DNA of 64,000 nt from Candidatus Omnitrophota bacterium (GTDB taxonomy: Bacteria > Omnitrophota > Gorgyraeia > Gorgyraeales > Gorgyraeaceae), in contig JBAZEP010000006.1 in the NCBI GenBank assembly GCA_041653835.1, forward strand, positions 37-64,036, in the 5' to 3' direction. Within the stretch, counting starts at the first letter, position 1; each line of letters begins with the position of its first letter. The position numbers and the translations under genes were made by a program. Shown one piece after another: positions 26,054 to 38,264 of the stretch. Below the pieces are notes generated by a model. That model was not told where the DNA came from, did not search any database, and saw only the letters and a list, made by a program, of their open reading frames with translations.

Positions 26054-26128
26054 GGGCGATTAGCTCAGTTGGCAGAGCGCTTCGTTTACACCGAAGAGGT
26101 TTCACAGGTTCGAGCCCTGTATCGCCCA
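26054..26128 (+). tRNA. tRNA-Val (anticodon TAC)
   Basis: Acceptor gggcgat/atcgccc, D-arm gctc/gagc, anticodon stem cttcg/cgaag, loop tttacac; my fold gives an unusually long 7-nt variable region. Confidence 0.75.
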
Positions 26129-26130
26129 CC

Positions 26131-26159
26131 GAATTTTACGAAGTAAAATTCGTCCCGAG
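26131..26159 (-). repeat. Inverted copy (copy 3) of CTCGGGACGAATTTT-N7-AAAATTCGG hairpin element, abutting tRNA-Val 3' end
   Basis: rc reads gctcgggacgaattttacttcgtaaaattcgg; loop differs from copies 1 and 2. Confidence 0.5.
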
Positions 26160-26203
26160 CAACCCTGATATTTGGTAAATAGTTGCGAGGGGCAGATTTT
26201 ATT

Positions 26204-26488
26204 ATGACTCAGTGGATTTTGTATATATTGAAATGCGCTGATGGTTCTTTGTATACAGGCATAACAACTGATTTAAAACAACGGCTAAAAAGACATAATC
26301 AAGGCAGAGCTTGTAAATATACCAGATCAAGAAAGCCAGTTAAAGTAGTGTATAGTGAGGTTTTTAACAACGAATCTTCGGTAAGAAAACGAGAGATAGA
26401 AATTAAGAAATTATCTCGTATAAATAAGTTAAGATTGATAGGTTGTTTCCCTCGCCGCATAAGTATAGATAAGGGCGGCTCGGGATAA
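26204..26488 (+). CDS. GIY-YIG nuclease family protein (UPF0213/YhbQ-like)
   Basis: WILYILKCADGSLYTGITTDLKQRLKRHNQG GIY-YIG signature. Confidence 0.7.
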   Translation: MTQWILYILKCADGSLYTGITTDLKQRLKRHNQGRACKYTRSRKPVKVVYSEVFNNESSVRKREIEIKKLSRINKLRLIGCFPRRISIDKGGSG

Positions 26489-26512
26489 AATTTTTTCTTC
26501 AAAAAAATTTCA

Positions 26513-26589
26513 GGGGACGTAGTTCAGTTGGATAGAACGCCAGATTGTCGATCTGGAGGTCGCGGGTTCGACCCCCGTCGTCCCCGCCA
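26513..26589 (+). tRNA. tRNA-Asp (anticodon GTC) with encoded CCA
   Basis: ggggacg/cgtcccc acceptor, anticodon stem ccaga/tctgg loop ttgtcga, T-loop ttcgacc. Confidence 0.9.
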
Positions 26590-26625
26590 GTACTTTTAAC
26601 TAACTTTGTTAGTTGTAATAAATTA

Positions 26626-26664
26626 GGCGTAATTCCTAATAAAATATGGAATTACGCCTTTTCT
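26626..26664 (+). terminator. Hairpin terminator ggcgtaattcc-loop-ggaattacgcc + TTTT
   Basis: 11-bp perfect stem, T-run. Confidence 0.6.
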
Positions 26665-26709
26665 ATTATCTCCGCCATCTCCACTAATTTCATCAAATCT
26701 GTCAAATTC

Positions 26710-26740
26710 CACTATACATTCACTATACACTTACTATACA
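26710..26740 (+). repeat. Three direct repeats of (C/T)ACTATACA at 11-bp periodicity (iteron/operator-like) just upstream of RBS of the 26754 gene
   Basis: cactataca tt cactataca ctt actataca gggagg. Confidence 0.6.
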
Positions 26741-26753
26741 GGGAGGTATTATC

Positions 26754-27209
26754 ATGAACTACCAATACCTCCATTACGACTTCTTCACCACCTGCCGTAA
26801 AAGAAAAATCAATAAAGTCCCCATGCTTCTATTAATCTATCTCCGCGGCCTCTATTCTAGATTTGGCAACATATTTACCTGGAAAGACAAAGTAATCCTT
26901 AGTGACTTGGGCATAAACCGCAAAATGCTCCAAAGATCGCGACTCACTCTGCAAGAAAAGGGCGTTATTGACTTTGTAAGCGGCAAAGGCCAGGAACCTA
27001 CTCAATACCTTATATTAGACAGTGTTCTTGCGCCAGAGAGAGTGGACAAAAAGCAAACAGGACTGGACAGAAATAAACAGAGGTATGGACATATTGTCCA
27101 GTCTATATATAAGAGTTATGAAAATAATAAAGATAAAATACCTATCAAAATATTTCAAGGCATGTCAGAGCAAGATAGAGTTTTTTTAAAGAGTAAAGGC
27201 CTTCTTTAA
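26754..27209 (+). CDS. Winged-helix DNA-binding protein, possible replication-initiator/replisome-organiser N-terminal-like
   Basis: LSDLGINRKMLQRSRLTLQEKGVIDF wHTH-like segment; iteron-like repeats upstream. Confidence 0.35.
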   Translation: MNYQYLHYDFFTTCRKRKINKVPMLLLIYLRGLYSRFGNIFTWKDKVILSDLGINRKMLQRSRLTLQEKGVIDFVSGKGQEPTQYLILDSVLAPERVDKKQTGLDRNKQRYGHIVQSIYKSYENNKDKIPIKIFQGMSEQDRVFLKSKGLL

Positions 27210-27211
27210 CT

Positions 27212-27427
27212 ATGGATTTTAGACTCAAGAACCTAATATATCCAAAAACATGCTTCTGGATAAACGCCTTTCTTCTCAAAGAGACCCGGAAAGCTATTTT
27301 AATCATGTTTGATGGCAATAAAGTCTGGTTACCTAAAGCATGGATTTTAAGGATTCGGCGAATTAAAGACAACAATGCCATCAGAATTAAAATATCTGAG
27401 TACTACTGGATTATGAAATTTTTTTAA
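27212..27427 (+). CDS. Small hypothetical protein (71 aa)
   Basis: ORF only; no recognisable motif. Confidence 0.25.
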   Translation: MDFRLKNLIYPKTCFWINAFLLKETRKAILIMFDGNKVWLPKAWILRIRRIKDNNAIRIKISEYYWIMKFF

Positions 27428-27438
27428 TAAAATAATAG

Positions 27439-27467
27439 TTGACAAGAAATAAATTGTTGCATATAAT
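27439..27467 (+). promoter_or_regulatory. Perfect consensus sigma70 promoter TTGACA-17-TATAAT
   Basis: ttgaca 27439-27444, tataat 27462-27467, followed by AAAGGAGG RBS and ATG 27549. Confidence 0.65.
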
Positions 27468-27548
27468 TCAGCTTAGTCGACACATCCTTCCCTAGCAGGG
27501 TGCTAGAGGACTTGAGTGGATGGTCGTACAATTAAAAGGAGGTGCTTT

Positions 27549-28727
27549 ATGCAGGGCCAGTCTGCGCGTCAGCGCGAAGTAGTTCATTTTCCTTTCTACA
27601 ACGTAAGAAACATAAGTTGTCCGGACGACAATAATAATTGTCGCAAGATTTATGTAGGACACGCTCCCGTATCTTCTATTATAGACATACCAACGGATGA
27701 AGATGTTCGTGGTTATCTTATAGGAGCGGAAGGCAAAAAGAAAAAAGTTCCTTCTCAGGTGCATCGAGCCATTCGTTCAACAATATCAGACAATCCAGAA
27801 AATTTTTCTGTTCTAAACGGAGGGGTTGTTATTGTAGCTCGTGAATGCACTATTGATGAAAATGAAAAAACGTTGCTATTAAAAAATCCAAGTATTATTA
27901 ATGGTGCACAAACCCAGGGTATTGTTTCTGATTTTTTCAAAGATAATAGCGAAGAGTTAAAGGCTCAGGAATTTTCTTGTCATGTCAAGTTTGAAATTGT
28001 CGTTACCAATGACGACGACTTGATTGCTGAAATTTCTATTGCTAGAAATTTTCAAAATGACGTTATGACACTATCTATTGTCGGACGCAGAGGATACTTA
28101 GATGAACTTGAGCAAAGTTTTCAAGTTAAATCACCTGGTACGCAATTACAGAAGTCTGAAACTAAATTATCGGAAGATTATATTAAAACAGAAAGGCTTC
28201 TTCAAGTAATCGCGGCTCTTATACCGGAAGAATTATGGGTTAAAAAGGAAGATATTAATAAAGTTTATACTTATAGCATGAAAGCAAAATGTTTAAAAGA
28301 ATTTCAGGAAATTTACTTGAAAGCAAAGAAAAAAGAAGACCCTGAGCATCATAAATACCTAGAACTTTATCAATTTTATCTAGATATTTCCGCAATAGCA
28401 TGGGAGCTATACAGCAAATGGAAAACTCATCAGGGATTTGCAGGTACTGGGCTACATTCAATTAAACGCGAAGGTAGCACTATCAAAGAAGTGCCGGATG
28501 GTATAGTTTTTCCGATCCTAGCTGCTTTATCAGTTTTTGCTAAAAAGACGAATGAAGGATGGACAATTAAACTACCCAATTCATTTAGCGAAAAAGAGCT
28601 GATTAAGTCTGTCAAATCAATTTATCAAGAGATAGCTGATAGAAATCCTAATGTTATGGGTAAGAAAAAAGCCTGCTATTCTTCCTTAATTCAGATAACT
28701 TCAATATATAAAAGATTATCAAAATAG
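27549..28727 (+). CDS. Island cargo protein, possible abortive-infection (AIPR-like)/ParB-like-nuclease-fold protein
   Basis: 392 aa; INGAQTQG motif reminiscent of DGQQR/DGQHR of DUF262/DndB-like proteins; strong promoter and RBS; call by resemblance only. Confidence 0.35.
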   Translation: MQGQSARQREVVHFPFYNVRNISCPDDNNNCRKIYVGHAPVSSIIDIPTDEDVRGYLIGAEGKKKKVPSQVHRAIRSTISDNPENFSVLNGGVVIVARECTIDENEKTLLLKNPSIINGAQTQGIVSDFFKDNSEELKAQEFSCHVKFEIVVTNDDDLIAEISIARNFQNDVMTLSIVGRRGYLDELEQSFQVKSPGTQLQKSETKLSEDYIKTERLLQVIAALIPEELWVKKEDINKVYTYSMKAKCLKEFQEIYLKAKKKEDPEHHKYLELYQFYLDISAIAWELYSKWKTHQGFAGTGLHSIKREGSTIKEVPDGIVFPILAALSVFAKKTNEGWTIKLPNSFSEKELIKSVKSIYQEIADRNPNVMGKKKACYSSLIQITSIYKRLSK

Positions 28728-28742
28728 GAAGAAAAACTACTA

Positions 28743-28769
28743 CCGGGTGCTCTTTTAAAGAGCGCCCGG
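28743..28769. terminator. Bidirectional hairpin between convergent genes (ccgggtgctcttt / aaagagcgcccgg)
   Basis: 13-bp stem with one G-U position. Confidence 0.5.
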
Positions 28770-28808
28770 TACAGTTCATTTTATTAATTATTATATAAAA
28801 ACCAAAGG

Positions 28809-29585
28809 TTAACTTAATTTCGGAGGATAAAAAACGCCCAGTACCATAAAGGTCGAAGGGAAACGGTGCGTATTACCTACATAGAAATAAACATCATTCT
28901 TTGTGGCACATATCAACTCGAGCCATCTTTTACGTATCATCTCAAGTAAGTGTTCTTCAGGTTTATACTTATGCCTCCACTCCCGATATGATTGCCCAAT
29001 CTCCCAATCAATTATCATCAGATCATGACCTGGGCAAGAAGATTCACCTTCACAGAAAAATTTATATCTAAATTCAAATGGTATTAGTTCGATGGCTTGC
29101 TTCTTTTTATCAAAAAATGATAATTGCGCATAGCAAGCCTCTCTTGCTGCTTCATCTTTGGGCTTTGCTTTGCAAGAGACGAAATCAATATTCTTAGGTT
29201 TGAACATTCCGAGAGATTTCTTACTATCCGTATTTTGTTTTACTATTTCACAGAATGACTTTTCAACAGTTGTTAAAACAATGTTTTTTCTTTTTTCCCA
29301 TTTATCAGTAGTATCAAGATAATCTATTTTCTTGATACTCCCGGCATCTGCCCTAAAACTTTCAGGCCGCTTATCATCTTTCGGCCTAATGGTTTTAACT
29401 TCTATTATTGTATATTTCTTGAACTTTTGGCTTTCATCTAAATCTCTGAAAGGTATAGGATAAAGTCTAATCCAACTTTTCGTATCAAGATCAATGCCTG
29501 CAACGCATATGGTTTCTCCATATTTTTTACTCGGATTAGGATATGCCTTGACGGTGACTAATATACGCTTTGTTTGTCCGTTCAT
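28809..29585 (-). CDS. Hypothetical protein (258 aa), no recognisable domain; downstream gene of DUF488 operon
   Basis: Long ORF, 9-nt gap to DUF488 gene, Cys/His cluster CEGESSCPGHD. Confidence 0.55.
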   Translation of the reverse strand: MNGQTKRILVTVKAYPNPSKKYGETICVAGIDLDTKSWIRLYPIPFRDLDESQKFKKYTIIEVKTIRPKDDKRPESFRADAGSIKKIDYLDTTDKWEKRKNIVLTTVEKSFCEIVKQNTDSKKSLGMFKPKNIDFVSCKAKPKDEAAREACYAQLSFFDKKKQAIELIPFEFRYKFFCEGESSCPGHDLMIIDWEIGQSYREWRHKYKPEEHLLEMIRKRWLELICATKNDVYFYVGNTHRFPSTFMVLGVFYPPKLS

Positions 29586-29594
29586 AGAAAACTA

Positions 29595-30056
29595 TTAGAT
29601 ATGCTTTACCTCGAAAGAAATGCCATTTATTCTGCTGACTCTATTAGCAACTGCGCTACGATGACAATTGGTATATTCTTTCTCGAAACATAAAAGGCAG
29701 GATAGCTTTTCATTTACGATCTCGTATAACTCCTCCAACTCTTTACTGCAAGTCTCTAAGTGTTCCCCATACTTCTCAAAAAAATAGTCAAAGTCTTTAT
29801 CTTGATAAACCTTCTTTCGTAAATACGAAGGACTTCCAAGTGCTTTTATATGAATGTAATCAATGTCATTGTCTGCCAGGCGCTGTCGTAAAACGCTTTT
29901 AGAAAAACCTTTTTTACGGCTCAATGGAATTTCTCTGACATCGACTATTCTCTGGATATTATAGGCATTAAGATATTCTATGAATTCTTCTATCTTTCTT
30001 CCTTCATATCCGGTAGTATAAACAGTCTTATATGATGAAATAGATAAGTTTTCCAT
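29595..30056 (-). CDS. DUF488 family protein
   Basis: TVYTTGYEGRKIEEFIEYLNAYNIQRIVDVREIPLSRKKGFSK matches DUF488 N-terminal signature. Confidence 0.55.
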   Translation of the reverse strand: MENLSISSYKTVYTTGYEGRKIEEFIEYLNAYNIQRIVDVREIPLSRKKGFSKSVLRQRLADNDIDYIHIKALGSPSYLRKKVYQDKDFDYFFEKYGEHLETCSKELEELYEIVNEKLSCLLCFEKEYTNCHRSAVANRVSRINGISFEVKHI

Positions 30057-30121
30057 CGCTCTTTCCTGAAATTATACCCCAGTATATAGAAAAAAGCAAA
30101 TCTTTCTGATTAAGAGAAAAT

Positions 30122-30143
30122 TGTCTTGACAATTGTCAAGACA
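30122..30143. promoter_or_regulatory. 22-bp perfect palindrome TGTCTTGACAATTGTCAAGACA (operator) overlapping -35 of promoter TTGACA-17-TATACT for HTH regulator
   Basis: Palindrome read directly; tatact at 30149-30154; regulator ATG at 30163 (near-leaderless). Confidence 0.6.
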
Positions 30144-30162
30144 TCGGGTATACTTATTTTAG

Positions 30163-30342
30163 ATGACGGAAAGGGAAATACTTTCTAAGATCGAAGACTA
30201 CATGCGAAAACATAACCTCCGTCAGTGGGAATTCGCGAAAAAGATCGGAATTCCTGATGGCACGCTTAATAGGTGGCTTAGAGGCAGGTCAAATATCTCA
30301 AATGCCTATCTGAAGCTGCTAAAAAAAGAAGGGGTTATATAA
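30163..30342 (+). CDS. Small HTH (XRE/Cro-CI-like) transcriptional regulator, 59 aa
   Basis: MTEREILSKIEDYMRKHNLRQWEFAKKIGIPDGTLNRWLRGRSNISNAYL; below ORF-track size cutoff. Confidence 0.55.
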   Translation: MTEREILSKIEDYMRKHNLRQWEFAKKIGIPDGTLNRWLRGRSNISNAYLKLLKKEGVI

Positions 30343-30362
30343 AAATATTTTTTTATTCAAAA

Positions 30363-30378
30363 TCTTGACAATTGTCAA
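30363..30378. promoter_or_regulatory. Second copy of operator palindrome CTTGACAATTGTCAAG upstream of excisionase-like gene
   Basis: 16-bp perfect palindrome identical to core of 30122..30143. Confidence 0.6.
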
Positions 30379-30404
30379 GCCAGTTGTTCAGTGAGGAGGT
30401 AAAA

Positions 30405-30590
30405 ATGACTTATCTAACACCAAAAGAAATTAGCGTAAAGACAGGTTTGAAGTACTCAACTGTTCTTGAATGGGCTAAAGACGGCATCATCCCTGCCCGG
30501 ATAATACAGAACAGGAAGAAAAGCAAGTATTTCTTTGTGGAAAAAGAGGTTGAGGCAGTAATAGAAAGACATAAAATAGCGGCGTTCTGA
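30405..30590 (+). CDS. xis: Excisionase-like HTH protein (AlpA/Xis family)
   Basis: MTYLTPKEISVKTGLKYSTVLEWAKDGIIPA; stop overlaps integrase ATG. Confidence 0.5.
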   Translation: MTYLTPKEISVKTGLKYSTVLEWAKDGIIPARIIQNRKKSKYFFVEKEVEAVIERHKIAAF

Positions 30591-31681
30591 TGAAAAAAGG
30601 ATATATATTCAAAAGAGGAAACAGCTGGTTTATTGCGCTGCCGGACCCATCTTATGCCTCAGGTTATAGGATTAAAGCTCCCTCCTACAGCACAAGATCC
30701 GCTGCTCAAAAGGCACTTAGAGAAAGAAAAAACGCCATAGGGTCCAGCCAAGCCGGATGGCTTAGCGAAGGCGACACATATTATGCTGATTACATTAAGG
30801 ATTATCTACAATTTGTTTTAACCAATCATAGCCAGGAGACCCTAAAAACATACAAAGGCGTGTTAAAAGATTTTAACCTCTTCCTTCAAGAGAAATACCC
30901 GCGAATGCAGCGCCTTAAGGAATTTTTTATCAGGCTTTTTGAAGAATACAAAATATGGCTTAAAGAAACAGGTCATAAGGACAATACAGTAAATAACCAT
31001 ATTAAGGTATTAAAGACTATATTTAACCAGGCAATAAGGTGGGAATTATTAAAAAAGAACCCTGTAAAGGATGTGCATAATATAGGCGTGGAAGATGAAA
31101 AGCCGATCGTCAGCCTAGATACGCCGGAAAAATTCGAATTATTCTTTGAAAGATGCAAAATTATAAGACCGGAATACTATAATCATTACTACTGCACGGC
31201 AAAACTTGGCCTTAGATGGAAAGAAATGATAAGTCTTGAATGGGATGATGTTGATTTTGAGAATGCAGTTGTAATTATAAGGAAAAAGAAAGGATTTATC
31301 CCGAAAGGCAGGACTCAAAAAGACCGTAAGCCCAAAACCAGGATAATTTCTGCGCCTCAAGATGTTTTGGATATATTAAAATCAATGGAACATAAACATG
31401 GGAAAATATTTCTTAAAGATGACAGCCCAATAAGTCCTAAGGATAAGAGTTTTAGAAGATGGATTATCGCGATAGTCAGGGGGACGCAATTAGAGGGGAT
31501 GTCGCGAATGCATGAATTAAGGCATACCACAGGCCGTATATTAGGACTAACTCACAGCCTTCATGAGATAAAAGAATTTTTGGGCCATACTGATATCAGG
31601 ACTACCGAAAGATATGTACGGGTAGGAGATGCGGCTAAGAAAAGTATGGCTAAAAGCTTAGAACAGTTTGGGAGGAAATAA
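30590..31681 (+). CDS. int: Tyrosine recombinase / phage-type integrase
   Basis: C-terminal HELRHTTGRIL...GHTDIRTTERYVRV catalytic R-H-R-Y motifs. Confidence 0.85.
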   Translation: MKKGYIFKRGNSWFIALPDPSYASGYRIKAPSYSTRSAAQKALRERKNAIGSSQAGWLSEGDTYYADYIKDYLQFVLTNHSQETLKTYKGVLKDFNLFLQEKYPRMQRLKEFFIRLFEEYKIWLKETGHKDNTVNNHIKVLKTIFNQAIRWELLKKNPVKDVHNIGVEDEKPIVSLDTPEKFELFFERCKIIRPEYYNHYYCTAKLGLRWKEMISLEWDDVDFENAVVIIRKKKGFIPKGRTQKDRKPKTRIISAPQDVLDILKSMEHKHGKIFLKDDSPISPKDKSFRRWIIAIVRGTQLEGMSRMHELRHTTGRILGLTHSLHEIKEFLGHTDIRTTERYVRVGDAAKKSMAKSLEQFGRK

Positions 31682-31790
31682 TATGAATTTATTATACATT
31701 TCACTACACAAGCTATATAATAAAAACTGTAACTTATTAAAAATAATGGCGTTGAGGATTAGGGGGAATTTATCCCCGTCGTCCCCGCCA

Positions 31791-33259
31791 ATATACCTAA
31801 GATACTCAAGTTTTGCATGTTTTAGGTATTTTTTTATGCTTTTTCACTCTTACCGCAGCACACTTTGAAGTCTAAAAATGCCAGATTTTAGGGTAAAAAA
31901 CAATATCGTAATGTCGGTTTGTTCTTTATTTGTCGCCCTATTAATTATAGAAATAGTTATTTTTAATTTTTCAAGTCTTTCCAAGGATGAGAAAAAAGTT
32001 TGGACAACAACGAGCAAAGGCTATGGAAATTGTTATTCATCCGATACAAAAGGCTATTTTCCGATATCTTTAAGAATATCGAAAGATAGAGAAGTCTTTC
32101 GAAAAATTCTGCTTAGTCCCACCATAGAATATCTTGTTGATAAAACCCCTTATTGCATTGTTTATGATGGACAAAAAAGGAGAGAGGGATTTTTTGCTGA
32201 CAGAGAACGTGAGGTGGCTATAGTAGGAGATTCTTTTGTTTTCGGAGAGGGAGTCAAAGAAGAAGATACATTAGGGTATTTACTGGGGTTAAAATTCACC
32301 AAAGCCAATTTCAAAAACTATGGGAGCACGGGGCTAATATCGAGTCACTCTTTACGCTCACCTTAGATATGTTTGAATGGGAAAAAGATATAGATGCAGT
32401 AGTCTATTTTTATAATCTCAACGATATATTAGTATGTCCTGAGATTGAAAGCCGGAGAAAATATATAATAGATTTTCAGAATATTAAATTGGAAAACGTT
32501 AAAAGATCGCGCAACTCCATAACAAAGTTATTATCAAAAAGCAATATCTACCGCTTGATAGAAAACTTGCTTATCCTTAGCAGAGAAACTCATTTGACAG
32601 TTGAAAATTATTTAGATATGTATTTTAATCCTATAAACTCAGATGAATTTGAAAAGACAATAGGATTTTTAGTGTCTATGAGTAATGTGGCAAAAGAAAG
32701 AAACGTTAATTTTTATGTTGTCATTTACCCTCTTTTATATAAAGATATCTATGGAAGATATTCGTTCCTTCAGGTTCACGAGCTCCTAAAAAATATCTGT
32801 GAGAAGCATAACATTCCCTGTATAGATGCTTATCCTGCTTTTGCAAACAGGTACTCTTTAAAGAAATTTACAGTTCATCCGATAGATTATCATCCGAACC
32901 GGATCGCTAATGAGAGAGTGGTTGAGTATTTGTCAAAAAAGGATGATTTCTTACAAGGTTACAAATAATCTTAAGAGTCTCCAAAAGTCCTTAAAATCCC
33001 GATAGTTGGTTACCCTCAGTTTTTATACTTGCGTAGTTATTTTGGATCAAATTTTGAGATTTTGTGTGCCAGATTTGTGCCAAGAATTAATAGGTTGGCA
33101 ATTTATTGAAGATAGAACAGAGAGAGGGTGCGAAAGAACAATATACCCAAGATATATCATATAGCACATTTTTAGCACACTTCAGATCTTGACTTATATA
33201 ACCCATGTATTTATAATGTACTAGGGATATGGGGAATGGTTCCCTGTCCGTCCCCGCCA
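31791..33259 (+). mobile_element. Remnant island 2 (older tandem insertion) ending in degenerate tRNA-Asp 3'-half copy
   Basis: 33225..33259 gggatatggggaatggttccctgtccgtccccgcca resembles tRNA-Asp T-arm+acceptor with last 10 nt identical. Confidence 0.4.
31878..32968 (+). pseudogene. SGNH/GDSL hydrolase disrupted by a frameshift near 32330-32366 (ORFs 31878..32366 and 32369..32968)
   Basis: Block I VAIVGDSFVFGEG in first ORF; block III YFYNLND and block V DYHPN in second ORF; frames differ by 1. Confidence 0.5.
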
Positions 33260-33268
33260 TAAACTTAC

Positions 33269-33302
33269 AAGCCATAATCTGATAAAGATTATGGCTTTTT
33301 TG
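33269..33302 (+). terminator. Intrinsic terminator aagccataatc-loop-gattatggctt + TTTTTT (likely native tRNA-Asp terminator)
   Basis: 11-bp stem, T-run. Confidence 0.6.
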
Positions 33303-33307
33303 TTACC

Positions 33308-33336
33308 TTGAAATAGCCTGTTTTATATGGTATAAT
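33308..33336 (+). promoter_or_regulatory. Promoter TTGAAA-17-TATAAT
   Basis: Sequence read directly. Confidence 0.5.
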
Positions 33337-33405
33337 TATATAAATATCGGATATTTGAACCATATAGCCTTAATAAAAGGACAAGGCTATTTTTTTGGAC
33401 TAATT

Positions 33406-34815
33406 ATGACGAAGATTAAAAAAGTATTAATCCTGATCCTGGTGGCCCTTTTTATTTCTACCAATATCTTGGCAGAAGACAAGGGTTTACCGCCTTCATC
33501 AGAGGCTTTTTTACGTATTCCTCTGGGGACAGCCCAGGTTTCAGACCGTTTCCAAAGGATACTCGAGCTAAGAGCTAAACATACAGATGTCATAAAAGAA
33601 AATATAGGGCGGCTTGAAAAAGAACTCAGTAAATTATACATAGACCTGGAAAAAGTTTTTTCAAAGGCGCTTATGCCGCTCGAAAAAGGCGAAATCGGCA
33701 TAGAAAATATCCGGAAGAGGTTCGGTATCAAAAATACACAAAATATGTATAATACTATAACAAGGATAAGAAAAAGGGAAATTAAACTCTCGATTTTAAA
33801 AAATGACAGGGATTCATTTCTCAATTTAAATTCTCACGGAGAGGGATATCCGGCAGCTGATCTGAGCGTGAATATTGAGCAGTGTTTTTCCAGGGCGGCC
33901 AATAAGATAGGCCTAACCGCATCTCTTTATAGGCATTATGATAACCGGACAGGGAGTATTGCACATAGTTATCTTATCCTGTCCGCAGACAATAAAGCTA
34001 TATCTATAGATTTCGCCGCAGGCCGGTTTATCCCTGAAAACGCGAAACAGGTTGTTGTCGAAGAATTTTCCGCATACCGGGATAAAATACAGCAGGCCAT
34101 AGATAACGCGTACTCCGCAGAACGATACGCGGATGATATGGAAAAAATAGAAAGCGGCAAGGAAGATTTTTTAAATAAAACCGAAGACAATATAAACATC
34201 GCGGCGGAAACCTCGGATGTCTCCGTGGAAATGGCATCTTTTTCCGATTATTCACGCCTGGTAAAGGAGTTGTATGATATCCCGGAGCGGGAACAAGAGG
34301 ACGCCGATTCCACGGTATATCTTAGCGATATGACAAAAGATATAGAGATGGATATCTATAAAAAAGAAACTGAAAAGGTTTTACTGTCTGTTTTTGTCGC
34401 GAGGGGCGTATCCGGTAAAATACTGGGAATAAGGGTGCTAGATAAACCGCACTATGTTCCGGAATTTGGGATAAAAGTGGTGTTCGGGGAAGACTTTGTA
34501 TTAAAAAAATACAGAGAACTGGGGGTAGGCACCAAGCTTAGAATGGCGGCGTTGGCCTATCTGATAGAAAACAAGTACGAAGCTTATGAGGTGGGCGTAA
34601 AAGAAAATAATGCAGCCAGTTATAATAATTTCATAAGTATATGCAATAGCCTCGGGATCCCCAGAAAAAATATTGTACCGGTTACGCATAAATTATATCC
34701 GGAAAGCGTAGGCAGCTTTAAGCATTATCTTCTATTGTTGAAACCCGGAGAAGATCTTTTCGAAAAGCTGCATGATAACGTGATCGCTGCCAGGGGAATA
34801 AAAACCAATATTTAA
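33406..34815 (+). CDS. Secreted protein with C-terminal GNAT-like region
   Basis: Signal peptide MTKIKKVLILILVALFISTNILA; C-terminal ...RELGVGTKLRMAALAYL... resembling acetyltransferase motif A. Confidence 0.4.
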   Translation: MTKIKKVLILILVALFISTNILAEDKGLPPSSEAFLRIPLGTAQVSDRFQRILELRAKHTDVIKENIGRLEKELSKLYIDLEKVFSKALMPLEKGEIGIENIRKRFGIKNTQNMYNTITRIRKREIKLSILKNDRDSFLNLNSHGEGYPAADLSVNIEQCFSRAANKIGLTASLYRHYDNRTGSIAHSYLILSADNKAISIDFAAGRFIPENAKQVVVEEFSAYRDKIQQAIDNAYSAERYADDMEKIESGKEDFLNKTEDNINIAAETSDVSVEMASFSDYSRLVKELYDIPEREQEDADSTVYLSDMTKDIEMDIYKKETEKVLLSVFVARGVSGKILGIRVLDKPHYVPEFGIKVVFGEDFVLKKYRELGVGTKLRMAALAYLIENKYEAYEVGVKENNAASYNNFISICNSLGIPRKNIVPVTHKLYPESVGSFKHYLLLLKPGEDLFEKLHDNVIAARGIKTNI

Positions 34816-34864
34816 AGATGCGCGCGTCTTATGGCATTAAAGAACGCCGCGATAGTAAATTCTT

Positions 34865-36865
34865 ATGAAGATCAAAATAAACCATAATTCCATGAAGACA
34901 TTATTAATAGCAGGTTTTATATCGATTTTTTCCTGCGCTTATCCGTGTTTTGCGCCTGCCGAGGAAAATCTCAGAGTGCCGATCAACAGTTATGATAGGA
35001 TAACCAAAATCTTCGAGCGTTTCAGCGAGGCAGATCGGTTAAAAATGGAAGCGGAACTATCTATGTTATCTCAGGATTGGGCAGGATTCAATGAGATAGT
35101 AAAAAGGCTTAAGGCCATGGATAATATTGAAGTTTTTGTCGCGGCAGGTCCGGAAATGAAAGAAAAAGATATTGCTGTGGACATTATCTTATCTTCACTG
35201 GTCAAACAGGACAGATTGACAGAATATCTGTCCAAAATAAATTTTGAGCACACTAATGACGAGCGCGCGTTTTTAGAGCATACTTTAGATAATATTTATC
35301 AGCATGTCAAAGAAGGGGTAGGCCTGATCATAAAACAAAAAATAGTTTTAGATACGGGCGACATGTATTCGGAAATATCGGTTATTGATAATGGCCCGGG
35401 CTTTATAGATAGAAGCGGCAACCGGGTATCAATAGAAACAGCGCTTGAATTGGAAAAGAGCCCGGGCAAAGGAGGAAGAGAAGGCCTTGGCTTACCAGCC
35501 GCAACAAAATTTTATACAGATTTTTCCACGATTCACATACCGGGCAGCAGCCAGCTTTCCAATGGATCATGGAAGAGCTCGAACAAGAAATCTTTCGGCA
35601 CGACTATCACGGGATATTTCCTGATAAATACGGTAAGATGGGAAGCTGTTAAGAAGGATATAATAAAAAGAGCTGTTTTGTATGTGGAGGATATGGAACT
35701 CGCGTCAGCCATAGAGAATACATCGCCTCCGGATACGGATATTCGAAAGGTATATGATTTTATTGCCGCTAGATTTGGACAACAGCGCGATGAAGCGCTG
35801 TCTATGATGGGAAGGCATCTGTTGGATCCGGCAAGATGGGAACTTATCGATGAGGCATTGGACCGCAAACTTTCCATAACTTCGATAGCCGATCTGCTTT
35901 ATTACAAAGCTCTGGACGGAGAAGTTCGGATGGAGACGTTCCCTGCCTGGTTCAGGGAACTTGTTTTGACGCAAAGCGGGTTTAGCAGTACAGGTATGCA
36001 CCGGCATGTGGTGGATATATTGTGGTCGGTTTACTATAGGCAAAAACATCTGGACCTGGCCTCGGGATCGCCGTTACTCGACAAACTTGTTAAGATAACA
36101 GAGCAGGACCGAATGTCGGGAGAAATATTAGGCGCGATCCAGGGGAAGATGCCGGATTATTCAGCCCGTGATATTACAAAATTTATTGTTTCAAAGCTTA
36201 GAGATATCAATGTAGTGGATTCCGCGTATAATTTCGGGGGCATTAATAGGTTATTAAGGGATGATATAGTTGTAGAAGAGGAATCTGCCGGAGGCGCTCC
36301 GCTTAGACTGAATAATTTAAGATTAAAGCATGAATTGAAAAAATCTCAATTAGCGTTTACCAGCGCCGATCTTGGTTCCCGAAAAGAAGGTTTTTATGTA
36401 TGGTTGACAGATATGCCGTTATGCCGTGAATTATCGCAATATATTAGAACTAAATATGGGTCCAAAGGACCGGTGCTTTTGAGTTCAGTGGAATTTGAAC
36501 TTATTAGCGGGGACGGCACGGCTCAGGTGGATATGCTGCAGGGATGGCTTCGTATTGACAGCAGGTTCCCTAAAGGTATCCGGGAAAAAATAGGTCCTGT
36601 AAGTTCTGCTGAAGAGATAAGCGCGGAGGCCTTCTACGCTTATGCCGTACAACGCGGTTTCAACAGGATCCGCGCGCCAGCCGGCAGTCAACTATTCGCG
36701 AGCGACACTGAACTCCCTATGCATAGAAACACTATAGAACGCCTTAATAATTTATACCGCAGGCTGGGATATAAATTGATATGTGAAAAAGATAAATGGT
36801 GGTGGGAACTTGAAATGCCTTACAATAAGTACGCAGGTTTGGATAGCAGAAGGACTGATTTATAA
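34865..36865 (+). CDS. Secreted protein with GHKL (HATPase_c-like) ATPase domain
   Basis: Signal peptide; N box EHTLDNIYQH, G1 VIDNGPGF, G2 GKGGREGLGL, G3 GTTITG; no HisKA or receiver seen. Confidence 0.45.
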   Translation: MKIKINHNSMKTLLIAGFISIFSCAYPCFAPAEENLRVPINSYDRITKIFERFSEADRLKMEAELSMLSQDWAGFNEIVKRLKAMDNIEVFVAAGPEMKEKDIAVDIILSSLVKQDRLTEYLSKINFEHTNDERAFLEHTLDNIYQHVKEGVGLIIKQKIVLDTGDMYSEISVIDNGPGFIDRSGNRVSIETALELEKSPGKGGREGLGLPAATKFYTDFSTIHIPGSSQLSNGSWKSSNKKSFGTTITGYFLINTVRWEAVKKDIIKRAVLYVEDMELASAIENTSPPDTDIRKVYDFIAARFGQQRDEALSMMGRHLLDPARWELIDEALDRKLSITSIADLLYYKALDGEVRMETFPAWFRELVLTQSGFSSTGMHRHVVDILWSVYYRQKHLDLASGSPLLDKLVKITEQDRMSGEILGAIQGKMPDYSARDITKFIVSKLRDINVVDSAYNFGGINRLLRDDIVVEEESAGGAPLRLNNLRLKHELKKSQLAFTSADLGSRKEGFYVWLTDMPLCRELSQYIRTKYGSKGPVLLSSVEFELISGDGTAQVDMLQGWLRIDSRFPKGIREKIGPVSSAEEISAEAFYAYAVQRGFNRIRAPAGSQLFASDTELPMHRNTIERLNNLYRRLGYKLICEKDKWWWELEMPYNKYAGLDSRRTDL

Positions 36866-36875
36866 TTAATCCCGG

Positions 36876-37679
36876 CTATTTCATTTTTTTAGATTTACGG
36901 ATTAAGACGTGCGTCGAACCGATGTCTGTCTCCAGGCCCTCATATTGGAGCCAGTCATAGGGCTCCTGGGCGGTGAACCATATAAAGGTAGGGGGTACCA
37001 TGGATTTAGCTATGCCGGTCAGGAGGCCCAGATCAGGTATGAGCCTCAATTTTATCGCTTCTATCTTTCCACCGGCTAGTTCCAGCGTTTCAACGCCCAT
37101 ATCCCGGACATTAACCCTGTATAAATGCGCCCTATCCGATATCAGATAGAAAGCCCTGTATTCTTTTTCGTTTCGATGAGCGGCGAATGTCTTTAAAAAA
37201 TGTATCAGGGTGGGGCCGTCAACAGTCTTGCCTTTTATTGGAAATACGGCTTTTTTAATAATATCTCCTCCGGTATCGAGGATAATGTATTGTATCCTCC
37301 GCCCGCTATAATCAAAAGTTTTTTCATGCTTTACGATCAAATCGCCGTTTTTGTCTTTAATTGAATTAGAGCTGTAGATGGGATAAAGAAATCCATCCCG
37401 CTCTTCCATCTCAGCCTCCATATCAAAAGTTACATCTTCGTATTCGTCATAATCGCCTTTGCCGTTAGCCGTGTATTTATATATCACGCGATTATCCCGC
37501 AATATGCGTTCGGTGAAAAAAGATGACGCTGAACGCCGTTCCGAAGTCTTTTTATCAAAATAAATAACTTCGCCGTTTTCGTGTTCAGGCATAAATGCCC
37601 TTGATATCTCCGCCGCGGATACCCACACGGGCATAAATAAAAGGCATAAGATTAAAACTTTCTTAAAAAGCGCGTTCAT
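36876..37679 (-). CDS. Secreted hypothetical protein (267 aa)
   Basis: Signal peptide MNALFKKVLILCLLFMPVWVSAAE. Confidence 0.5.
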   Translation of the reverse strand: MNALFKKVLILCLLFMPVWVSAAEISRAFMPEHENGEVIYFDKKTSERRSASSFFTERILRDNRVIYKYTANGKGDYDEYEDVTFDMEAEMEERDGFLYPIYSSNSIKDKNGDLIVKHEKTFDYSGRRIQYIILDTGGDIIKKAVFPIKGKTVDGPTLIHFLKTFAAHRNEKEYRAFYLISDRAHLYRVNVRDMGVETLELAGGKIEAIKLRLIPDLGLLTGIAKSMVPPTFIWFTAQEPYDWLQYEGLETDIGSTHVLIRKSKKMK

Positions 37680-37769
37680 ATTTTTATTATATAGCTTTGC
37701 ATGATATTTGTAAAGTTGTAGAAACTATATTAAAAAATGTTATAATGTATCACAGAAAAGAGGTGAGAG

Positions 37770-38264
37770 ATGGCTGATTTTTCGTTTGATATTACTTCGA
37801 AGGTGGATCTTCAGGAGATAGACAATGCCGTGAACCAGGCGAAGAAGGAACTTGCCAACAGGTATGATTTCAGGGGCGCGAAATTTTCCATAGATTATAA
37901 CAGGGAAGAAAAAAAGATAACGCTGGTCGCGGGAGATGATTTTAAACTCCGCGGTATCCGGGACTCGCTCGGCATGAGATTATCTAAAAGGGGCATCTCG
38001 CTCAAATCCATCAAATACCTGGAACCTGAAAAGGCTTTCGAGGGCAATCTCCGACAGACAGTGGAGATCACGGACGGCATACCAAAAGAGAGGGCAAGAG
38101 AGCTGGTGCAGATAATCAAAGACCTGAAGCTGAAGGTCCAGGCAAGGATCGAGGAAGATAAGATAAGGGTCAGCGGAGCTAAAAAAGATGATCTCCAAAC
38201 GGTTATGACGCATTTAAGAGGTATAGATTTCCCTGTATATTTACAATTTGGTAATTACAGGTAA
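37770..38264 (+). CDS. yajQ: YajQ family nucleotide-binding protein (UPF0234)
   Basis: MADFSFDITSKVDLQEIDNAVNQAKKELANRYDFRG. Confidence 0.75.
   Translation: MADFSFDITSKVDLQEIDNAVNQAKKELANRYDFRGAKFSIDYNREEKKITLVAGDDFKLRGIRDSLGMRLSKRGISLKSIKYLEPEKAFEGNLRQTVEITDGIPKERARELVQIIKDLKLKVQARIEEDKIRVSGAKKDDLQTVMTHLRGIDFPVYLQFGNYR

What the first reader, a model, noticed from the sequence alone, without database searches (positions are those of the whole stretch)
26513..31790. tRNA-Asp-integrated 5.2-kb island with complete repressor/xis/int module and AT-rich cargo
A 17-bp exact direct repeat of the tRNA-Asp 3' end (CCCCGTCGTCCCCGCCA) recurs at 31774..31790, immediately after a tyrosine integrase. The interval contains an excisionase-like gene, a 59-aa HTH repressor, iteron-flanked wHTH gene and three cargo genes of unknown function. 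This is the clearest accessory region in the window and the likeliest place for an undescribed system.
Basis: seen in the sequence. Interest (0 to 1): 0.65.

Follow-up and report, generated by a model that had tools for sequence, protein, structure and literature searches.

The report
Small tRNA-Asp island carrying phage-defence genes
A 5.2-kb mobile island sits in the end of a tRNA-Asp gene of an uncultured Omnitrophota bacterium; it belongs to a previously undescribed but conventional family of islands that keep the same ends and swap candidate anti-phage genes in the middle.

Summary
tRNA-Asp(GTC) lies at 26513-26589. Its last 17 bases recur exactly once, at 31774-31790, 92 bp after an intact tyrosine integrase. 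No second tRNA lies there. The enclosed 5,184 bp have 36% G+C against 47% for the rest of the window.

The host is a Candidatus Omnitrophota MAG. A sibling island (L072) sits in the same tRNA-Asp with the same repeat, in a host whose V-ATPase subunit I is only 47% identical. Its end genes are 76-84% identical and its cargo is different. Four further loci carry the left-end gene with yet other cargo. This is therefore a mobile family with conserved ends and exchangeable cargo.

The "unknown" cargo is assignable: an AIPR (Abi-like) protein, and the DUF488 + dual-OB pair that PADLOC lists as the untested candidate PDC-M19. The dual-OB protein models as an SSB-like tandem OB fold.

The 59-aa XRE repressor is flanked by two copies of an 18-bp palindrome. 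One copy overlaps its own promoter. The "iterons" are three 11-bp repeats before a winged-helix gene, and two more copies lie near attR.

No precise empty site and no attP circle were found. Verdict: a real, well-built but conventional integrative defence island, a new member of a known kind.

The parts
26513..26589 (+). tRNA-Asp(GTC), the integration target; its 3' end is regenerated by the island-borne copy of the core
   Evidence: ARAGORN; Rfam RF00005, 69.9 bits
26573..26589 (+). attL core: 17-bp direct repeat covering the last T-loop base, the 3' T-stem strand, the 3' acceptor strand, the discriminator and CCA
   Evidence: Exact repeat, 0 of 100 shuffles reach two matches; position within the tRNA read from the sequence
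26598..26669 (+). Two hairpins just inside attL. The main stem is 26625-26636 / 26648-26659, followed by TTTTC. This is an island-supplied terminator-like structure for the tRNA operon.
   Evidence: MFE -26.6 kcal/mol, z -6.4. The same hairpin is kept in L072 with a different stem sequence (-23.1 kcal/mol, z -6.9)
26710..26742 (+). Three direct repeats (C/T)ACTATACA at exact 11-bp spacing, overlapping a weak promoter and ending at the orf151 RBS. Candidate iterons or integrase arm-type sites.
   Evidence: The triplet with 11-bp spacing is conserved in L072, L073, L075 and L076
26754..27209 (+). orf151: conserved left-end backbone gene. It has an N-terminal winged helix-turn-helix, a disordered linker and a short C-terminal helix. 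Candidate origin-binding protein or regulator.
   Evidence: No Pfam, PHROG or NCBIfam hit. AF2 model has a wHTH at residues 8-87. Foldseek hits CodY, RepA_N initiator 4pt7 and ArsR/MarR. Siblings are 51-94% identical. Remote relatives carry HTH_36, DnaB_2 or Phage_rep_O
27212..27427 (+). orf71: small backbone gene that always follows orf151; function unknown
   Evidence: 50-61% identical copies follow orf151 in L006, L070, L072, L075 and L076; no family hit
27439..27467 (+). Perfect sigma-70 consensus promoter (TTGACA-17-TATAAT) for the AIPR gene
   Evidence: 12 of 12 matches
27516..28727 (+). Cargo 1: AIPR-family (abortive-infection-like) protein. The likely true start is ATG 27549, behind AAGGAGG.
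   Evidence: Pfam AIPR 1.7e-24, 87.5 bits against a cut-off of 25; PADLOC AbiU 1.5e-16, partial; phrog_1841 'Abi alpha-like' 2.6e-21; RBS read
28741..28771 (.). Strong hairpin between the convergent AIPR and DuOB genes; a bidirectional terminator
   Evidence: 14-bp stem; -26.4 kcal/mol, z -6.6
28809..29585 (-). Cargo 2b: dual-OB (DuOB) protein, PADLOC PDC-M19B. SSB-like tandem OB fold with invariant Cys and His residues.
   Evidence: PDC-M19B 4.2e-67 over the full length; phrog_25907 1.9e-58. AF2 pLDDT 85; Foldseek hits LEF-3, CST, RPA and HIN-200. 894 homologues at E<=0.001; the 120 listed are 60-100% identical. Invariant C27, C178, C184, H187
29595..30056 (-). Cargo 2a: stand-alone DUF488 protein, a short form of PADLOC PDC-M19A. 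It lies 9 bp upstream of the DuOB gene in the same operon.
   Evidence: Pfam DUF488 8.9e-30. PDC-M19A 9.1e-41, matching only the C-terminal half of the model. The pair is conserved in order in L065, L066 and L067. Invariant motifs
30124..30141 (.). Operator O1: perfect 18-bp palindrome TCTTGACAATTGTCAAGA. It contains the -35 hexamer of the repressor promoter (TTGACA-17-TATACT, 30126-30154).
   Evidence: (0 expected by chance)
30163..30342 (+). 59-aa XRE/Cro-type HTH repressor
   Evidence: HTH_3 6.3e-8; PHROG repressor families
30363..30380 (.). Operator O2: second copy of the palindrome (17 of 18), between the repressor stop and the xis start
30372..30590 (+). Excisionase-like HTH_17 gene (probable start ATG 30405 behind GAGGAGG). 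Its stop overlaps the integrase start (TGATG).
   Evidence: HTH_17 8e-8; phrog_66 excisionase 1.5e-7; TIGR01764 at 1.5e-4, below cut-off; 84% identical in L072; sequence
30590..31681 (+). Tyrosine integrase, transcribed outward towards attR
   Evidence: Phage_integrase 9e-16 and SAM_5 1.2e-13; phrog_1 6e-39; catalytic motifs aligned to Tn1549 Int 6en0; 78.5% identical in L072
31691..31710 (+). Two further copies of the repeat (ATTATACA, ACTACACA; 12-bp spacing) between the integrase stop and attR
   Evidence: conserved at the same place in L072 (19008, 19020), in a block that is otherwise poorly conserved
31774..31790 (+). attR core: second copy of the 17-bp tRNA-Asp 3' end, not part of any tRNA gene

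Best explanation
Window 26590-31773 is a small integrative island that carries no visible transfer genes of its own. It belongs to an Omnitrophota-specific family that inserts site-specifically into the 3' end of tRNA-Asp.

Mechanism, with shown and inferred steps marked:

- **Integration.** A tyrosine integrase of the phage/ICE type recombines a 17-bp core on the circular element (attP) with the identical T-stem/acceptor/CCA segment of tRNA-Asp (attB). The tRNA is rebuilt and the element ends up flanked by the core. The product is shown; the reaction is inferred.
- **Insulation.** Just inside attL the element supplies a terminator-like hairpin, which would replace the tRNA's own terminator.
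- **Control.** The operon is promoter/O1 - XRE repressor - O2 - xis - int. It appears to be autorepressed through two copies of an 18-bp palindrome, one of which contains the -35 hexamer. Excision functions would then stay silent until the repressor is relieved. This step is inferred. A sibling island has a non-homologous small regulator and different palindromes at the same position, as in the immunity regions of temperate phages.
- **Left-end module.** This is three 11-bp repeats, the winged-helix orf151 and orf71. It is either a minimal origin plus origin-binding protein for replication after excision, or a regulatory/arm-site module. Two more repeat copies lie beside attR, so in the excised circle the core would be bracketed by repeats on both arms.
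- **Cargo.** Between the two conserved ends lies exchangeable cargo, here two separately transcribed candidate anti-phage modules. One is an AIPR (Abi-like) protein behind a perfect consensus promoter. The other is a DUF488 + dual-OB operon (PADLOC candidate PDC-M19). I infer that the SSB-like dual-OB protein senses or binds phage nucleic acid, probably single-stranded DNA, and that the DUF488 protein is the enzymatic partner.
For: Junctions. The 17-bp repeat is exact and unique, one copy is the tRNA 3' end, and no tRNA lies at the other. G+C is 0.36 against 0.47.

Integration genes.

Sibling island L072. It has the same tRNA-Asp and the same core at both ends (9784-9799 and 19092-19107). orf151 is 76% identical, xis 84% and int 78.5%, while the flanking V-ATPase I, K and D proteins are only 47-64% identical. 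Its cargo is entirely different and includes PDC-S06 at 1.5e-180.

Other siblings. L006, L070/L071, L073, L075 and L076 carry orf151 (all but L073 also orf71), beside tRNA-Asp or a remnant of it wherever the junction lies on the contig (L006, L073, L075, L076). Their cargo is different again: a type I RM methylase, a UvrD-like helicase, Fic, Zeta, DpnI, HipBA and a C5 methylase.

Absence from relatives. Island genes are missing from L004, L008 and L077.

Non-coding features. The hairpin, the 11-bp repeats and the attR-side repeats are conserved. The palindromes overlap a promoter. L072 has a replaced regulator and different palindromes at the same place.

Cargo. The DUF488-DuOB pair recurs as a unit in three unrelated contexts. 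DuOB has an SSB-like fold. PDC systems were derived from genes embedded in BREX, DISARM and type I RM loci (bioRxiv 10.1101/2024.01.29.577857). DUF488 is reported in prophage and defence-island neighbourhoods (bioRxiv 10.1101/2024.05.24.595836).
Against: - No precise empty attB and no attP junction was found in the metagenome scan, so current mobility is not demonstrated.
- The closest island-free relative (L077, V-ATPase I 81% identical) lacks not just the 5.2 kb but the whole 11.1 kb up to about 37710. The comparison therefore does not isolate this element.
- No conjugation, mobilisation or packaging gene is present, so the transfer route is unknown.
- orf151 itself matches no replication family, and its fold hits are generic winged helices.
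- No arm-binding domain could be detected in the integrase N-terminus.
- PDC-M19 has never been tested. Its A component matches only the C-terminal half of the PADLOC models.
- DuOB homologues sit next to integrases or immunity repressors on many mobile elements. That could point to a role in element biology rather than defence.
- The -10 element for a separate xis-int promoter at O2 is poor (sequence).
Confidence: 0.8

Rival explanations
1. The island is an integrative plasmid-like or satellite-like replicon. orf151 is an iteron-binding initiator. The repeats on both sides of the core form one origin in the excised circle, and integration splits that origin. The element would replicate only after excision and would spread with the help of a phage or a conjugative element.
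For: orf151 has a winged-helix fold, and its best TM-score is to the staphylococcal RepA_N initiator 4pt7. Among remote relatives of orf151, 3 of 65 carry the DnaD/DnaB replication domain, 1 carries lambda-O-type Phage_rep_O and 7 carry HTH_36. Three repeats at helical-turn (11-bp) spacing lie next to the gene and are conserved in five siblings, with further copies across the core. The position at the end opposite the integrase matches the optional replication module of tycheposons (bioRxiv 10.1101/2020.12.28.424599).
Against: orf151 lacks the C-terminal DnaD-like domain and matches no Rep family directly. No primase, helicase, terminase or capsid gene is present. No relative was found in IMG/VR viral contigs. 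No circular form was found. Generic transcription factors match the fold equally well.
Confidence: 0.35
2. The 11-bp repeats are arm-type binding sites for the integrase (P and P' arms), and orf151 is merely a transcription regulator or accessory DNA-bending factor. The island has no replication function.
For: Repeats lie on both sides of the core, about 60-120 bp away, in both the window and L072, while the surrounding non-coding DNA has diverged. This is the layout of arm-type sites in heterobivalent tyrosine integrases; that comparison rests on textbook lambda and Tn916 knowledge, not on a test here. About 65 integrase residues precede the SAM-like core-binding domain.
Against: No arm-binding domain family matches the N-terminal 71 residues, even at E<=10. 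The left-hand repeats overlap the orf151 promoter and RBS, which also fits autoregulation.
Confidence: 0.4
3. The island is a fixed, no longer mobile remnant. The repeat marks an old insertion, and the genes persist only because the cargo is useful.
For: No attP or empty site was recovered. The region downstream, 31791-33259, looks like an older decayed insertion with a degenerate core. Sibling L073 has lost its integrase.
Against: Both cores are 17 of 17 identical. Integrase, xis and repressor are full-length with catalytic motifs, and both operators are intact. The near-identical module in a distant host (L072) shows that the family has moved recently relative to host divergence.
Confidence: 0.15
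4. DUF488-DuOB is not a defence system. It is a mobile-element maintenance or exclusion function linked to integration, such as single-strand DNA handling during recombination or replication.
For: DuOB homologues lie beside tyrosine integrases or immunity repressors in Gordonia phage Nymphadora (gp43, after repressor gp44), in Sulfolobus plasmid pSOG2, in Burkholderia plasmid pYS1 and in L066. The fold is SSB-like.
Against: Sibling island L072, with the same integrase module, lacks the pair, so it is not needed for the backbone. The pair also occurs away from any integrase, in L065 and L067. PADLOC derived the candidate from genes embedded in BREX, DISARM and RM loci. The repressor-to-integrase interval of temperate actinophages is a known site for prophage defence genes (my own knowledge, not tested here).
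Confidence: 0.25

Closest known systems
tRNA-targeting genomic islands and integrative mobilizable elements with tyrosine integrases (T-loop / 3'-end sublocation)
   Same: The direct repeat is the 3' part of the tRNA, from the T-loop to CCA. The tRNA is regenerated. An integrase and an excisionase lie at one end. Base composition is deviant and the cargo is variable.
   Different: The island is very small (5.2 kb), with no relaxase, oriT or mobilisation gene. The integrase is transcribed outward at the tRNA-distal end. The left-end genes (orf151, orf71) are specific to this family.
Tycheposons of Prochlorococcus (bioRxiv 10.1101/2020.12.28.424599)
   Same: Both occur in small-genome environmental bacteria. 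Both have a tRNA-specific tyrosine recombinase, partial-tRNA repeats, a small module at the end opposite the integrase, exchangeable cargo in between, and tandem accretion that builds larger variable regions.
   Different: The integrase is outward-facing here, whereas the definition says inward-facing. No primase, helicase or polymerase is present. The cargo here is defence-type rather than nutrient-type. Whether the integrase falls in the tycheposon clade was not tested.
Phage-inducible chromosomal islands and minimalist satellites (PICI; PICMI, about 6 kb; recalled from memory)
   Same: Both have an integrase, a small repressor, an excisionase and a possible replication initiator with iterons. 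The size is close to that of minimalist satellites, and the cargo interferes with phages.
   Different: No terS, capsid, cos/pac or primase genes were detected. No helper is known, and there are no relatives in IMG/VR.
PADLOC phage defence candidate PDC-M19 (bioRxiv 10.1101/2024.01.29.577857)
   Same: It is a two-gene cassette. The B protein matches over its full length (4e-67) and the A protein contains DUF488 (9e-41). The genes are adjacent and co-oriented.
   Different: The A protein here is a 153-aa stand-alone DUF488 that lacks the 90-145-residue N-terminal part of the PADLOC and PHROG models. All 120 listed homologues are this short form.
AIPR / AbiU-type abortive infection proteins
   Same: A complete AIPR domain is present, well above Pfam's threshold, and the gene is a single-gene unit with its own promoter and terminator.
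   Different: The protein is short (392-403 aa) with only about 80 residues before the domain. It matches only about 115 of 537 positions of the PADLOC AbiU model and is far below the NCBIfam MzaE cut-off.
Tn1549 / Tn916-type integrases
   Same: This is the closest solved structure by sequence (6en0, E 1e-8). The core-binding and catalytic motifs align.
   Different: Tn1549 is a conjugative transposon with loose target choice. This element is tRNA-site-specific and has no conjugation genes.

Membership tests
tRNA-integrated tyrosine-integrase island | Direct repeats at both ends, derived from the 3' part of a tRNA gene, with the tRNA left intact | tested here: met
   17 of 17 repeat at 26573-26589 and 31774-31790. 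The tRNA is complete by ARAGORN and Rfam, and no tRNA lies at the second copy.
tRNA-integrated tyrosine-integrase island | Full-length tyrosine recombinase with the catalytic Arg / His-x-x-Arg / His / Tyr residues | tested here: met
   Pfam Phage_integrase and SAM_5. GLRWKEM, HELRHT and GHTDIRTTERY align to Tn1549 Int motifs.
tRNA-integrated tyrosine-integrase island | Recombination directionality factor (excisionase) | tested here: met
   HTH_17 8e-8, phrog_66 excisionase 1.5e-7. TIGR01764 is below its cut-off.
tRNA-integrated tyrosine-integrase island | Presence/absence polymorphism: an exact empty site (attB) in a close relative | tested here: inconclusive
   Island genes are absent from L004, L008 and L077. 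These relatives are only 59-81% identical in V-ATPase I and differ over 11 kb. The junction-pattern scan found no exact attB.
tRNA-integrated tyrosine-integrase island | Independent insertion of the same backbone at the same site in another genome | tested here: met
   L072 has the same core at both ends of a 9.3-kb island in tRNA-Asp. Integrase is 78.5% identical against 47% for host V-ATPase I.
tRNA-integrated tyrosine-integrase island | Excised circular form (attP junction) | tested here: inconclusive
   The degenerate junction pattern covering attL, attR, attB and attP returned only attL-type and island-free tRNA loci in JGI metagenome contigs. Raw reads could not be searched.
PADLOC PDC-M19 | Component B (DuOB-type protein) present | tested here: met
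   PDLC04508 4.2e-67, residues 5-256 against model positions 3-262 of 269.
PADLOC PDC-M19 | Component A present and adjacent, on the same strand | tested here: met
   PDLC04505 9.1e-41, but only model positions 146-294 of 294 are matched. The gene lies 9 bp upstream of B. This is a short-form variant.
PADLOC PDC-M19 | Protection against phage | not testable with these tools
   The PDC systems are described as untested candidates.
AIPR / AbiU abortive infection | AIPR domain above the curated threshold | tested here: met
   PF10592 87.5 bits against a cut-off of 25, model positions 13-301 of 308.
AIPR / AbiU abortive infection | Full-length similarity to AbiU or MzaE | tested here: not met
   The AbiU model is matched only at positions 257-371 of 537. 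MzaE scores 30.6 bits against a cut-off of 1050.
Tycheposon | [quoted passage not shown] | tested here: not met
   The integrase (30590 to 31681, + strand) is transcribed towards attR, that is, outward.
Tycheposon | Integrase belongs to the tycheposon-specific clade; shared hallmark replication genes | not tested
No primase, helicase or polymerase lies in the island.
PICI / phage satellite | Packaging or capsid-redirection genes (terS, capsid, cos/pac) and a primase-replicase | tested here: not met
   None of the eight proteins hits such families in Pfam or PHROGs.
Prophage | Virion structural and lysis genes | tested here: not met
   There are only eight genes and none is structural. No DNA match in the phage or plasmid collections.
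Iteron-type replication initiator | Winged-helix DNA-binding domain with adjacent tandem direct repeats | tested here: met
   AF2 wHTH model, fold hits, and three repeats at 11-bp spacing conserved in five siblings.
Iteron-type replication initiator | Sequence membership in a known Rep, DnaD or lambda-O family | tested here: inconclusive
   orf151 itself matches nothing. Among 65 relatives from a profile search, 7 match HTH_36, 3 DnaB_2 and 1 Phage_rep_O.

The most novel reading that the evidence does not exclude
The island family is a helper-dependent, satellite-like replicon of Omnitrophota. Its origin (the 11-bp repeats on both sides of the core) is assembled only in the excised circle and is split by integration. 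Its middle section acts as a swappable slot for defence cassettes. One of these, the DUF488 + SSB-like dual-OB pair, would be a genuine and mechanistically new anti-phage system that senses single-stranded phage DNA.
Probability: 0.15. Interest if true: 0.6.

Novelty: new member of a known kind. Interest (0 to 1): 0.36.

Why it matters
Omnitrophota are uncultured, small-celled bacteria, and the literature I could search describes their mobile elements only as very large elements (bioRxiv 10.64898/2026.05.20.726742). This locus gives a compact, fully delimited example of how defence genes move between distant Omnitrophota lineages. It has two conserved ends, a replaceable immunity-type regulator and a cargo slot.

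It also supplies a clean natural context for two poorly understood cassettes: a short stand-alone form of the untested DUF488-DuOB candidate, and a minimal AIPR protein. Its integrase has a defined 17-bp tRNA-Asp target that could be tested directly.

None of this would surprise a specialist in mobile elements. The value is as a well-annotated member of a known class and as a pointer to the DUF488-DuOB pair.

Tried and rejected
- **Exact-protein look-ups.** The GIY-YIG protein and the integrase are not on record, probably because different starts were called. The V-ATPase K look-up gave only 1.5-kb contigs.
- **Empty site and attP.** One degenerate pattern covering all four junction types was scanned over JGI metagenome contigs. 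It returned two sibling attL junctions and two island-free tRNA-Asp loci, but no exact attB or attP.
- **Viral contigs.** Neither the integrase nor the orf151 profile has relatives in IMG/VR.
- **Whole-island DNA.** No match in the plasmid or phage collections.
- **Solved structures by sequence.** Nothing significant for DuOB or AIPR. DUF488 gave only a marginal local match (72-122 of 147 profile positions) to the DnaI N-terminal domain, E 0.038 with the single sequence and 5.9e-4 with the 34-sequence profile, which I do not treat as homology.
- **Literature.** No paper holds 'PDC-M19', and none holds both 'DuOB' and 'OB-fold'. A first DuOB search was swamped by unrelated words. DUF488 and YeaO have no functional literature.
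- **Gordonia phage repressor.** I tested whether the immunity repressor upstream of the phage DuOB homologue is an HTH-DUF488 fusion. It is not: HTH_31 only, with no similarity to DUF488.
- **Role of the 59-aa HTH.** I considered that it belongs to the DUF488-DuOB module, and rejected this. No HTH neighbour is conserved in L065-L067. In L072 a different small regulator occupies the same place before xis, with different cargo.
- **Integrase N-terminus.** No Pfam match to any arm-binding domain.
- **Rfam.** Nothing in the island apart from the tRNAs.

Full report
**1. The observation**

ARAGORN places tRNA-Asp(GTC) at 26513-26589 on the + strand, 383 bp after tRNA-Val. Rfam agrees.

The 17-mer CCCCGTCGTCCCCGCCA occurs exactly twice in the window, even with two mismatches allowed: at 26573-26589 and at 31774-31790. 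None of 100 dinucleotide-preserving shuffles gave two matches. The identity extends to 20 nt with one mismatch.

Read against the tRNA, the 17 bases are the last T-loop base, the 3' T-stem strand, the 3' acceptor strand, the discriminator and the encoded CCA. Neither ARAGORN nor Rfam at E<=1 sees a tRNA at the second copy. The repeat is therefore not part of a second tRNA gene.

The 5,184 bp between the cores have 36.0% G+C. The rest of the window has 47.0%. No 5.2-kb window elsewhere falls below 45.6% (sd 0.8 points).

**2. Gene content**

Eight genes fill the interval.

| Gene | Coordinates, strand | Assignment |
|---|---|---|
| orf151 | 26754-27209, + | No family hit |
| orf71 | 27212-27427, + | No family hit |
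| AIPR | 27516/27549-28727, + | Pfam AIPR 1.7e-24 |
| DuOB | 28809-29585, - | PADLOC PDC-M19B 4e-67; weak Pfam DuOB |
| DUF488 | 29595-30056, - | Pfam DUF488 9e-30; PDC-M19A 9e-41 |
| Repressor | 30163-30342, + | 59-aa XRE HTH |
| xis | 30372/30405-30590, + | HTH_17 excisionase-like |
| int | 30590-31681, + | Tyrosine integrase |

The integrase aligns best to the Tn1549 integrase among solved structures. It keeps the Arg, His-x-x-Arg, His and Tyr motifs.

**3. Signals between the genes**

- A perfect TTGACA-17-TATAAT promoter precedes the AIPR gene.
- A 14-bp-stem hairpin separates the convergent AIPR and DuOB genes.
- An 18-bp perfect palindrome, TCTTGACAATTGTCAAGA, lies at 30124-30141. It contains the -35 hexamer of an 11-of-12 promoter for the repressor gene.
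- A second copy of the palindrome (17 of 18) lies at 30363-30380, between the repressor stop and the xis start. Chance expectation is zero.
- The xis stop overlaps the integrase start.

The simplest reading is one autorepressed operon: repressor, xis, int.

Just inside attL there is a strong hairpin followed by TTTTC (-26.6 kcal/mol, z -6.4). A weaker terminator-like hairpin followed by T7 sits just outside attR.

**4. Host and neighbours**

The DuOB protein is identical to an NCBI entry from a Candidatus Omnitrophota MAG, on a contig of 64,630 bp.

The arrangement V-ATPase, tRNA-Val, tRNA-Asp is conserved in related Omnitrophota genomes, in either orientation. What follows the 3' end of tRNA-Asp differs in every relative examined.

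The closest relative found is L077, with V-ATPase I 81% identical. There, tRNA-Asp is followed by a terminator, a small PilZ-like ORF and then the DUF520 gene that lies at 37770 in the window. The window's lineage therefore carries about 11.1 kb of extra DNA here. The repeat-bounded island is the first 5.2 kb of it.

The next 1.5 kb (31791-33259) is even more AT-rich, at 33%. It ends at a degenerate core, CCTGTCCGTCCCCGCCA (13 of 17, with the last 11 exact). This may be an older, decayed insertion.

**5. A family of islands**

The decisive comparison is L072.

- Its host is distant: V-ATPase I is 47% identical, K 64% and D 58%.
- Its tRNA-Asp is followed by an orf151 homologue (76%), an orf71 homologue, about 7 kb of unrelated cargo, an xis (84%), an integrase (78.5%) and then the same core sequence again.
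- The core lies at 9784-9799 and 19092-19107, so the island is 9.3 kb.
- Homology to the window stops at the core on the right, and a different host gene follows.
- Its cargo includes a PADLOC PDC-S06 ATPase (1.5e-180).

Other loci carry orf151, followed by orf71 in all but L073, beside tRNA-Asp or a remnant of it wherever the junction lies on the contig (L070/L071 begin about 280 bp upstream of orf151 and show neither). Each has different cargo.

| Locus | orf151 identity | Cargo seen |
|---|---|---|
| L006 | 51% | Serine recombinase, UvrD-like helicase, type I methylase |
| L070/L071 | 79% | YhcG nuclease, Fic, Zeta toxin, IS3, DpnI |
| L073 | 84% | HipBA; no integrase |
| L075 | 94% | C5 methylase |
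| L076 | 93% | 3.1-kb contig; cargo not examined |

The backbone is much better conserved than the host genes around it. It has therefore moved horizontally among Omnitrophota, always into the same site.

The regulator is part of the exchangeable set. In L072 the position before xis holds a 45-aa ORF that looks ribbon-helix-helix-like by eye, with a different pair of palindromes.

**6. The repeats**

ACTATACA occurs three times at exact 11-bp spacing (26711, 26722, 26733), immediately before the orf151 ribosome-binding site. The same triplet with the same spacing is present in L072, L073, L075 and L076.

Two further copies (ATTATACA, ACTACACA) lie 12 bp apart between the integrase stop and attR. 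They are conserved at that place in L072 inside otherwise diverged DNA. In an excised circle the core would be bracketed by repeats on both arms.

That layout fits integrase arm-type sites. I could not detect an arm-binding domain in the integrase N-terminus.

It also fits iterons.

- orf151 models as an N-terminal winged helix, a disordered linker and a short C-terminal helix (pLDDT 70).
- Its fold matches generic winged-helix regulators and the staphylococcal RepA_N initiator about equally.
- A profile search of 1.84 billion representatives found only 138 relatives.
- Of 65 relatives scanned, seven match HTH_36, three match the DnaD/DnaB replication domain and one matches lambda-O.

I leave both readings open at roughly equal weight.

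**7. The cargo**

*DUF488-DuOB pair.* The search returned 894 DuOB homologues at E<=0.001, and the 120 listed are 60-100% identical to the window protein. The sources name several phyla, and all hits are about 256-260 aa. In three unrelated contexts the protein is preceded by a 146-154-aa DUF488 gene in the same order.

The AF2 model (pLDDT 85) is a tandem OB fold. Its best matches are single-strand DNA binders (baculovirus LEF-3, CST, RPA, telomere end-binding protein) and the HIN-200 DNA sensors. TM-scores are low, 0.3-0.36. Four Cys/His residues are invariant.

DUF488 homologues of this type are all stand-alone. They share the invariant motifs TxGYxG, DxRE-P-SRK-GFSK, GSP, CxxCFE and CHR. 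No solved structure is detectable by sequence. The literature I could search says nothing is known about the function beyond association with prophages and defence islands.

PADLOC's PDC systems are explicitly untested candidates, derived from genes embedded in BREX, DISARM and type I RM loci. My mechanistic proposal is that DuOB is a nucleic-acid sensor and DUF488 its enzymatic partner. This is inference only.

One caution applies. DuOB homologues sit next to integrases or immunity repressors on a Gordonia temperate phage, a Sulfolobus conjugative plasmid, a Burkholderia IncP plasmid and L066. A role in mobile-element biology is therefore not excluded.

*AIPR protein.* It has a complete domain but is short. 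It is not a full-length AbiU or MzaE.

**8. What was not found**

- No exact empty site and no attP junction.
- No relatives among IMG/VR viral contigs.
- No DNA similarity to known plasmids or phages.
- No transfer or packaging genes.

Current mobility and the route of transfer therefore remain inferred.

**9. Comparison and verdict**

In logic the element works like other tRNA-targeting tyrosine-integrase islands. It is most like cargo-carrying tycheposons: a tRNA-specific integrase, partial-tRNA repeats, a small module at the opposite end, swappable cargo and tandem accretion.

It fails the tycheposon definition on integrase orientation, and it has no recognisable replication enzymes. It lacks every packaging hallmark of PICIs.

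I file it as a new member of a known kind: a compact integrative defence island of a family not described in the papers I could search. The only Omnitrophota mobile elements that turned up there are very large ones.

Interest is moderate to low for the island itself. The DUF488-DuOB pair and the possibly split origin are the parts that could repay experiments.

Noticed in passing
window 31791-33259: A very AT-rich stretch (33% G+C) lies directly after attR. It holds two adjacent ORFs in different frames (31878-32366 and 32369-32968; GDSxxxG and DxxH motifs seen by eye, no Pfam hit). It ends at a degenerate core, CCTGTCCGTCCCCGCCA (13 of 17, last 11 exact). This may be an older decayed island in tandem, carrying a frameshifted gene.
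   Followed up: partly
window 26590-37710, compared with L077: In the closest relative found (V-ATPase I 81% identical), tRNA-Asp is followed by only 1.1 kb (a terminator and a PilZ-like ORF) before the DUF520 gene. The whole 11.1 kb of the window up to about 37710 is therefore lineage-specific. It includes three genes with no confident Pfam match (33355-34815, only sub-threshold hits; 34865-36865 and 36876-37679, none).
   Followed up: partly
window 26054-26589, compared with L003, L004, L007, L008: The tRNA-Val/tRNA-Asp pair is inverted relative to the V-ATPase operon in some related Omnitrophota genomes and direct in others. This suggests recurrent inversion of the segment that carries the integration hotspot.
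   Followed up: no
window 26183-26488: A GIY-YIG (URI-type) nuclease gene sits between tRNA-Val and tRNA-Asp in the window and in L011 (81% identical). In most other relatives examined the two tRNAs are only about 10-130 bp apart, and no homologue was detected at E<=1e-5 in any of them. It may be a separate small mobile insertion.
   Followed up: partly
L075 (reverse complement), positions 73-133: The closest sibling island (orf151 94% identical) is preceded by only 28 nt of the tRNA-Asp 3' end and then by unrelated AT-rich DNA. This looks like a tandem-island junction or an attP-type junction of a different integrase. Only 100 nt of flank are available.
   Followed up: partly
L072 9930-10000 and L075 (reverse complement) about 280-330: A short GC-rich hairpin is inserted between the 11-bp repeats and the orf151 start in two siblings, but not in the window, L073 or L076. 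It looks like a miniature inserted element.
   Followed up: no
L078 (Gordonia phage Nymphadora) 3018-4822: A 35%-identical DuOB homologue (gp43) is translationally coupled to the annotated immunity repressor gp44 (HTH_31, no DUF488). It lies in the repressor-integrase interval, next to a HipA-like toxin. DuOB therefore also pairs with partners other than DUF488.
   Followed up: partly
L072 17340-17600: At the position of the window's XRE repressor, the sibling island has a 45-aa ORF that looks ribbon-helix-helix-like, with its own consensus-like promoter and a different pair of palindromes (ATGAGTAAATACTCA / ATGAGTATTTACTCAT). This is an immunity-type module replacement.
   Followed up: partly
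window 27439-27467: A 12-of-12 sigma-70 consensus promoter lies in front of the AIPR gene. This is notable in a phylum whose promoters are uncharacterised.
   Followed up: no
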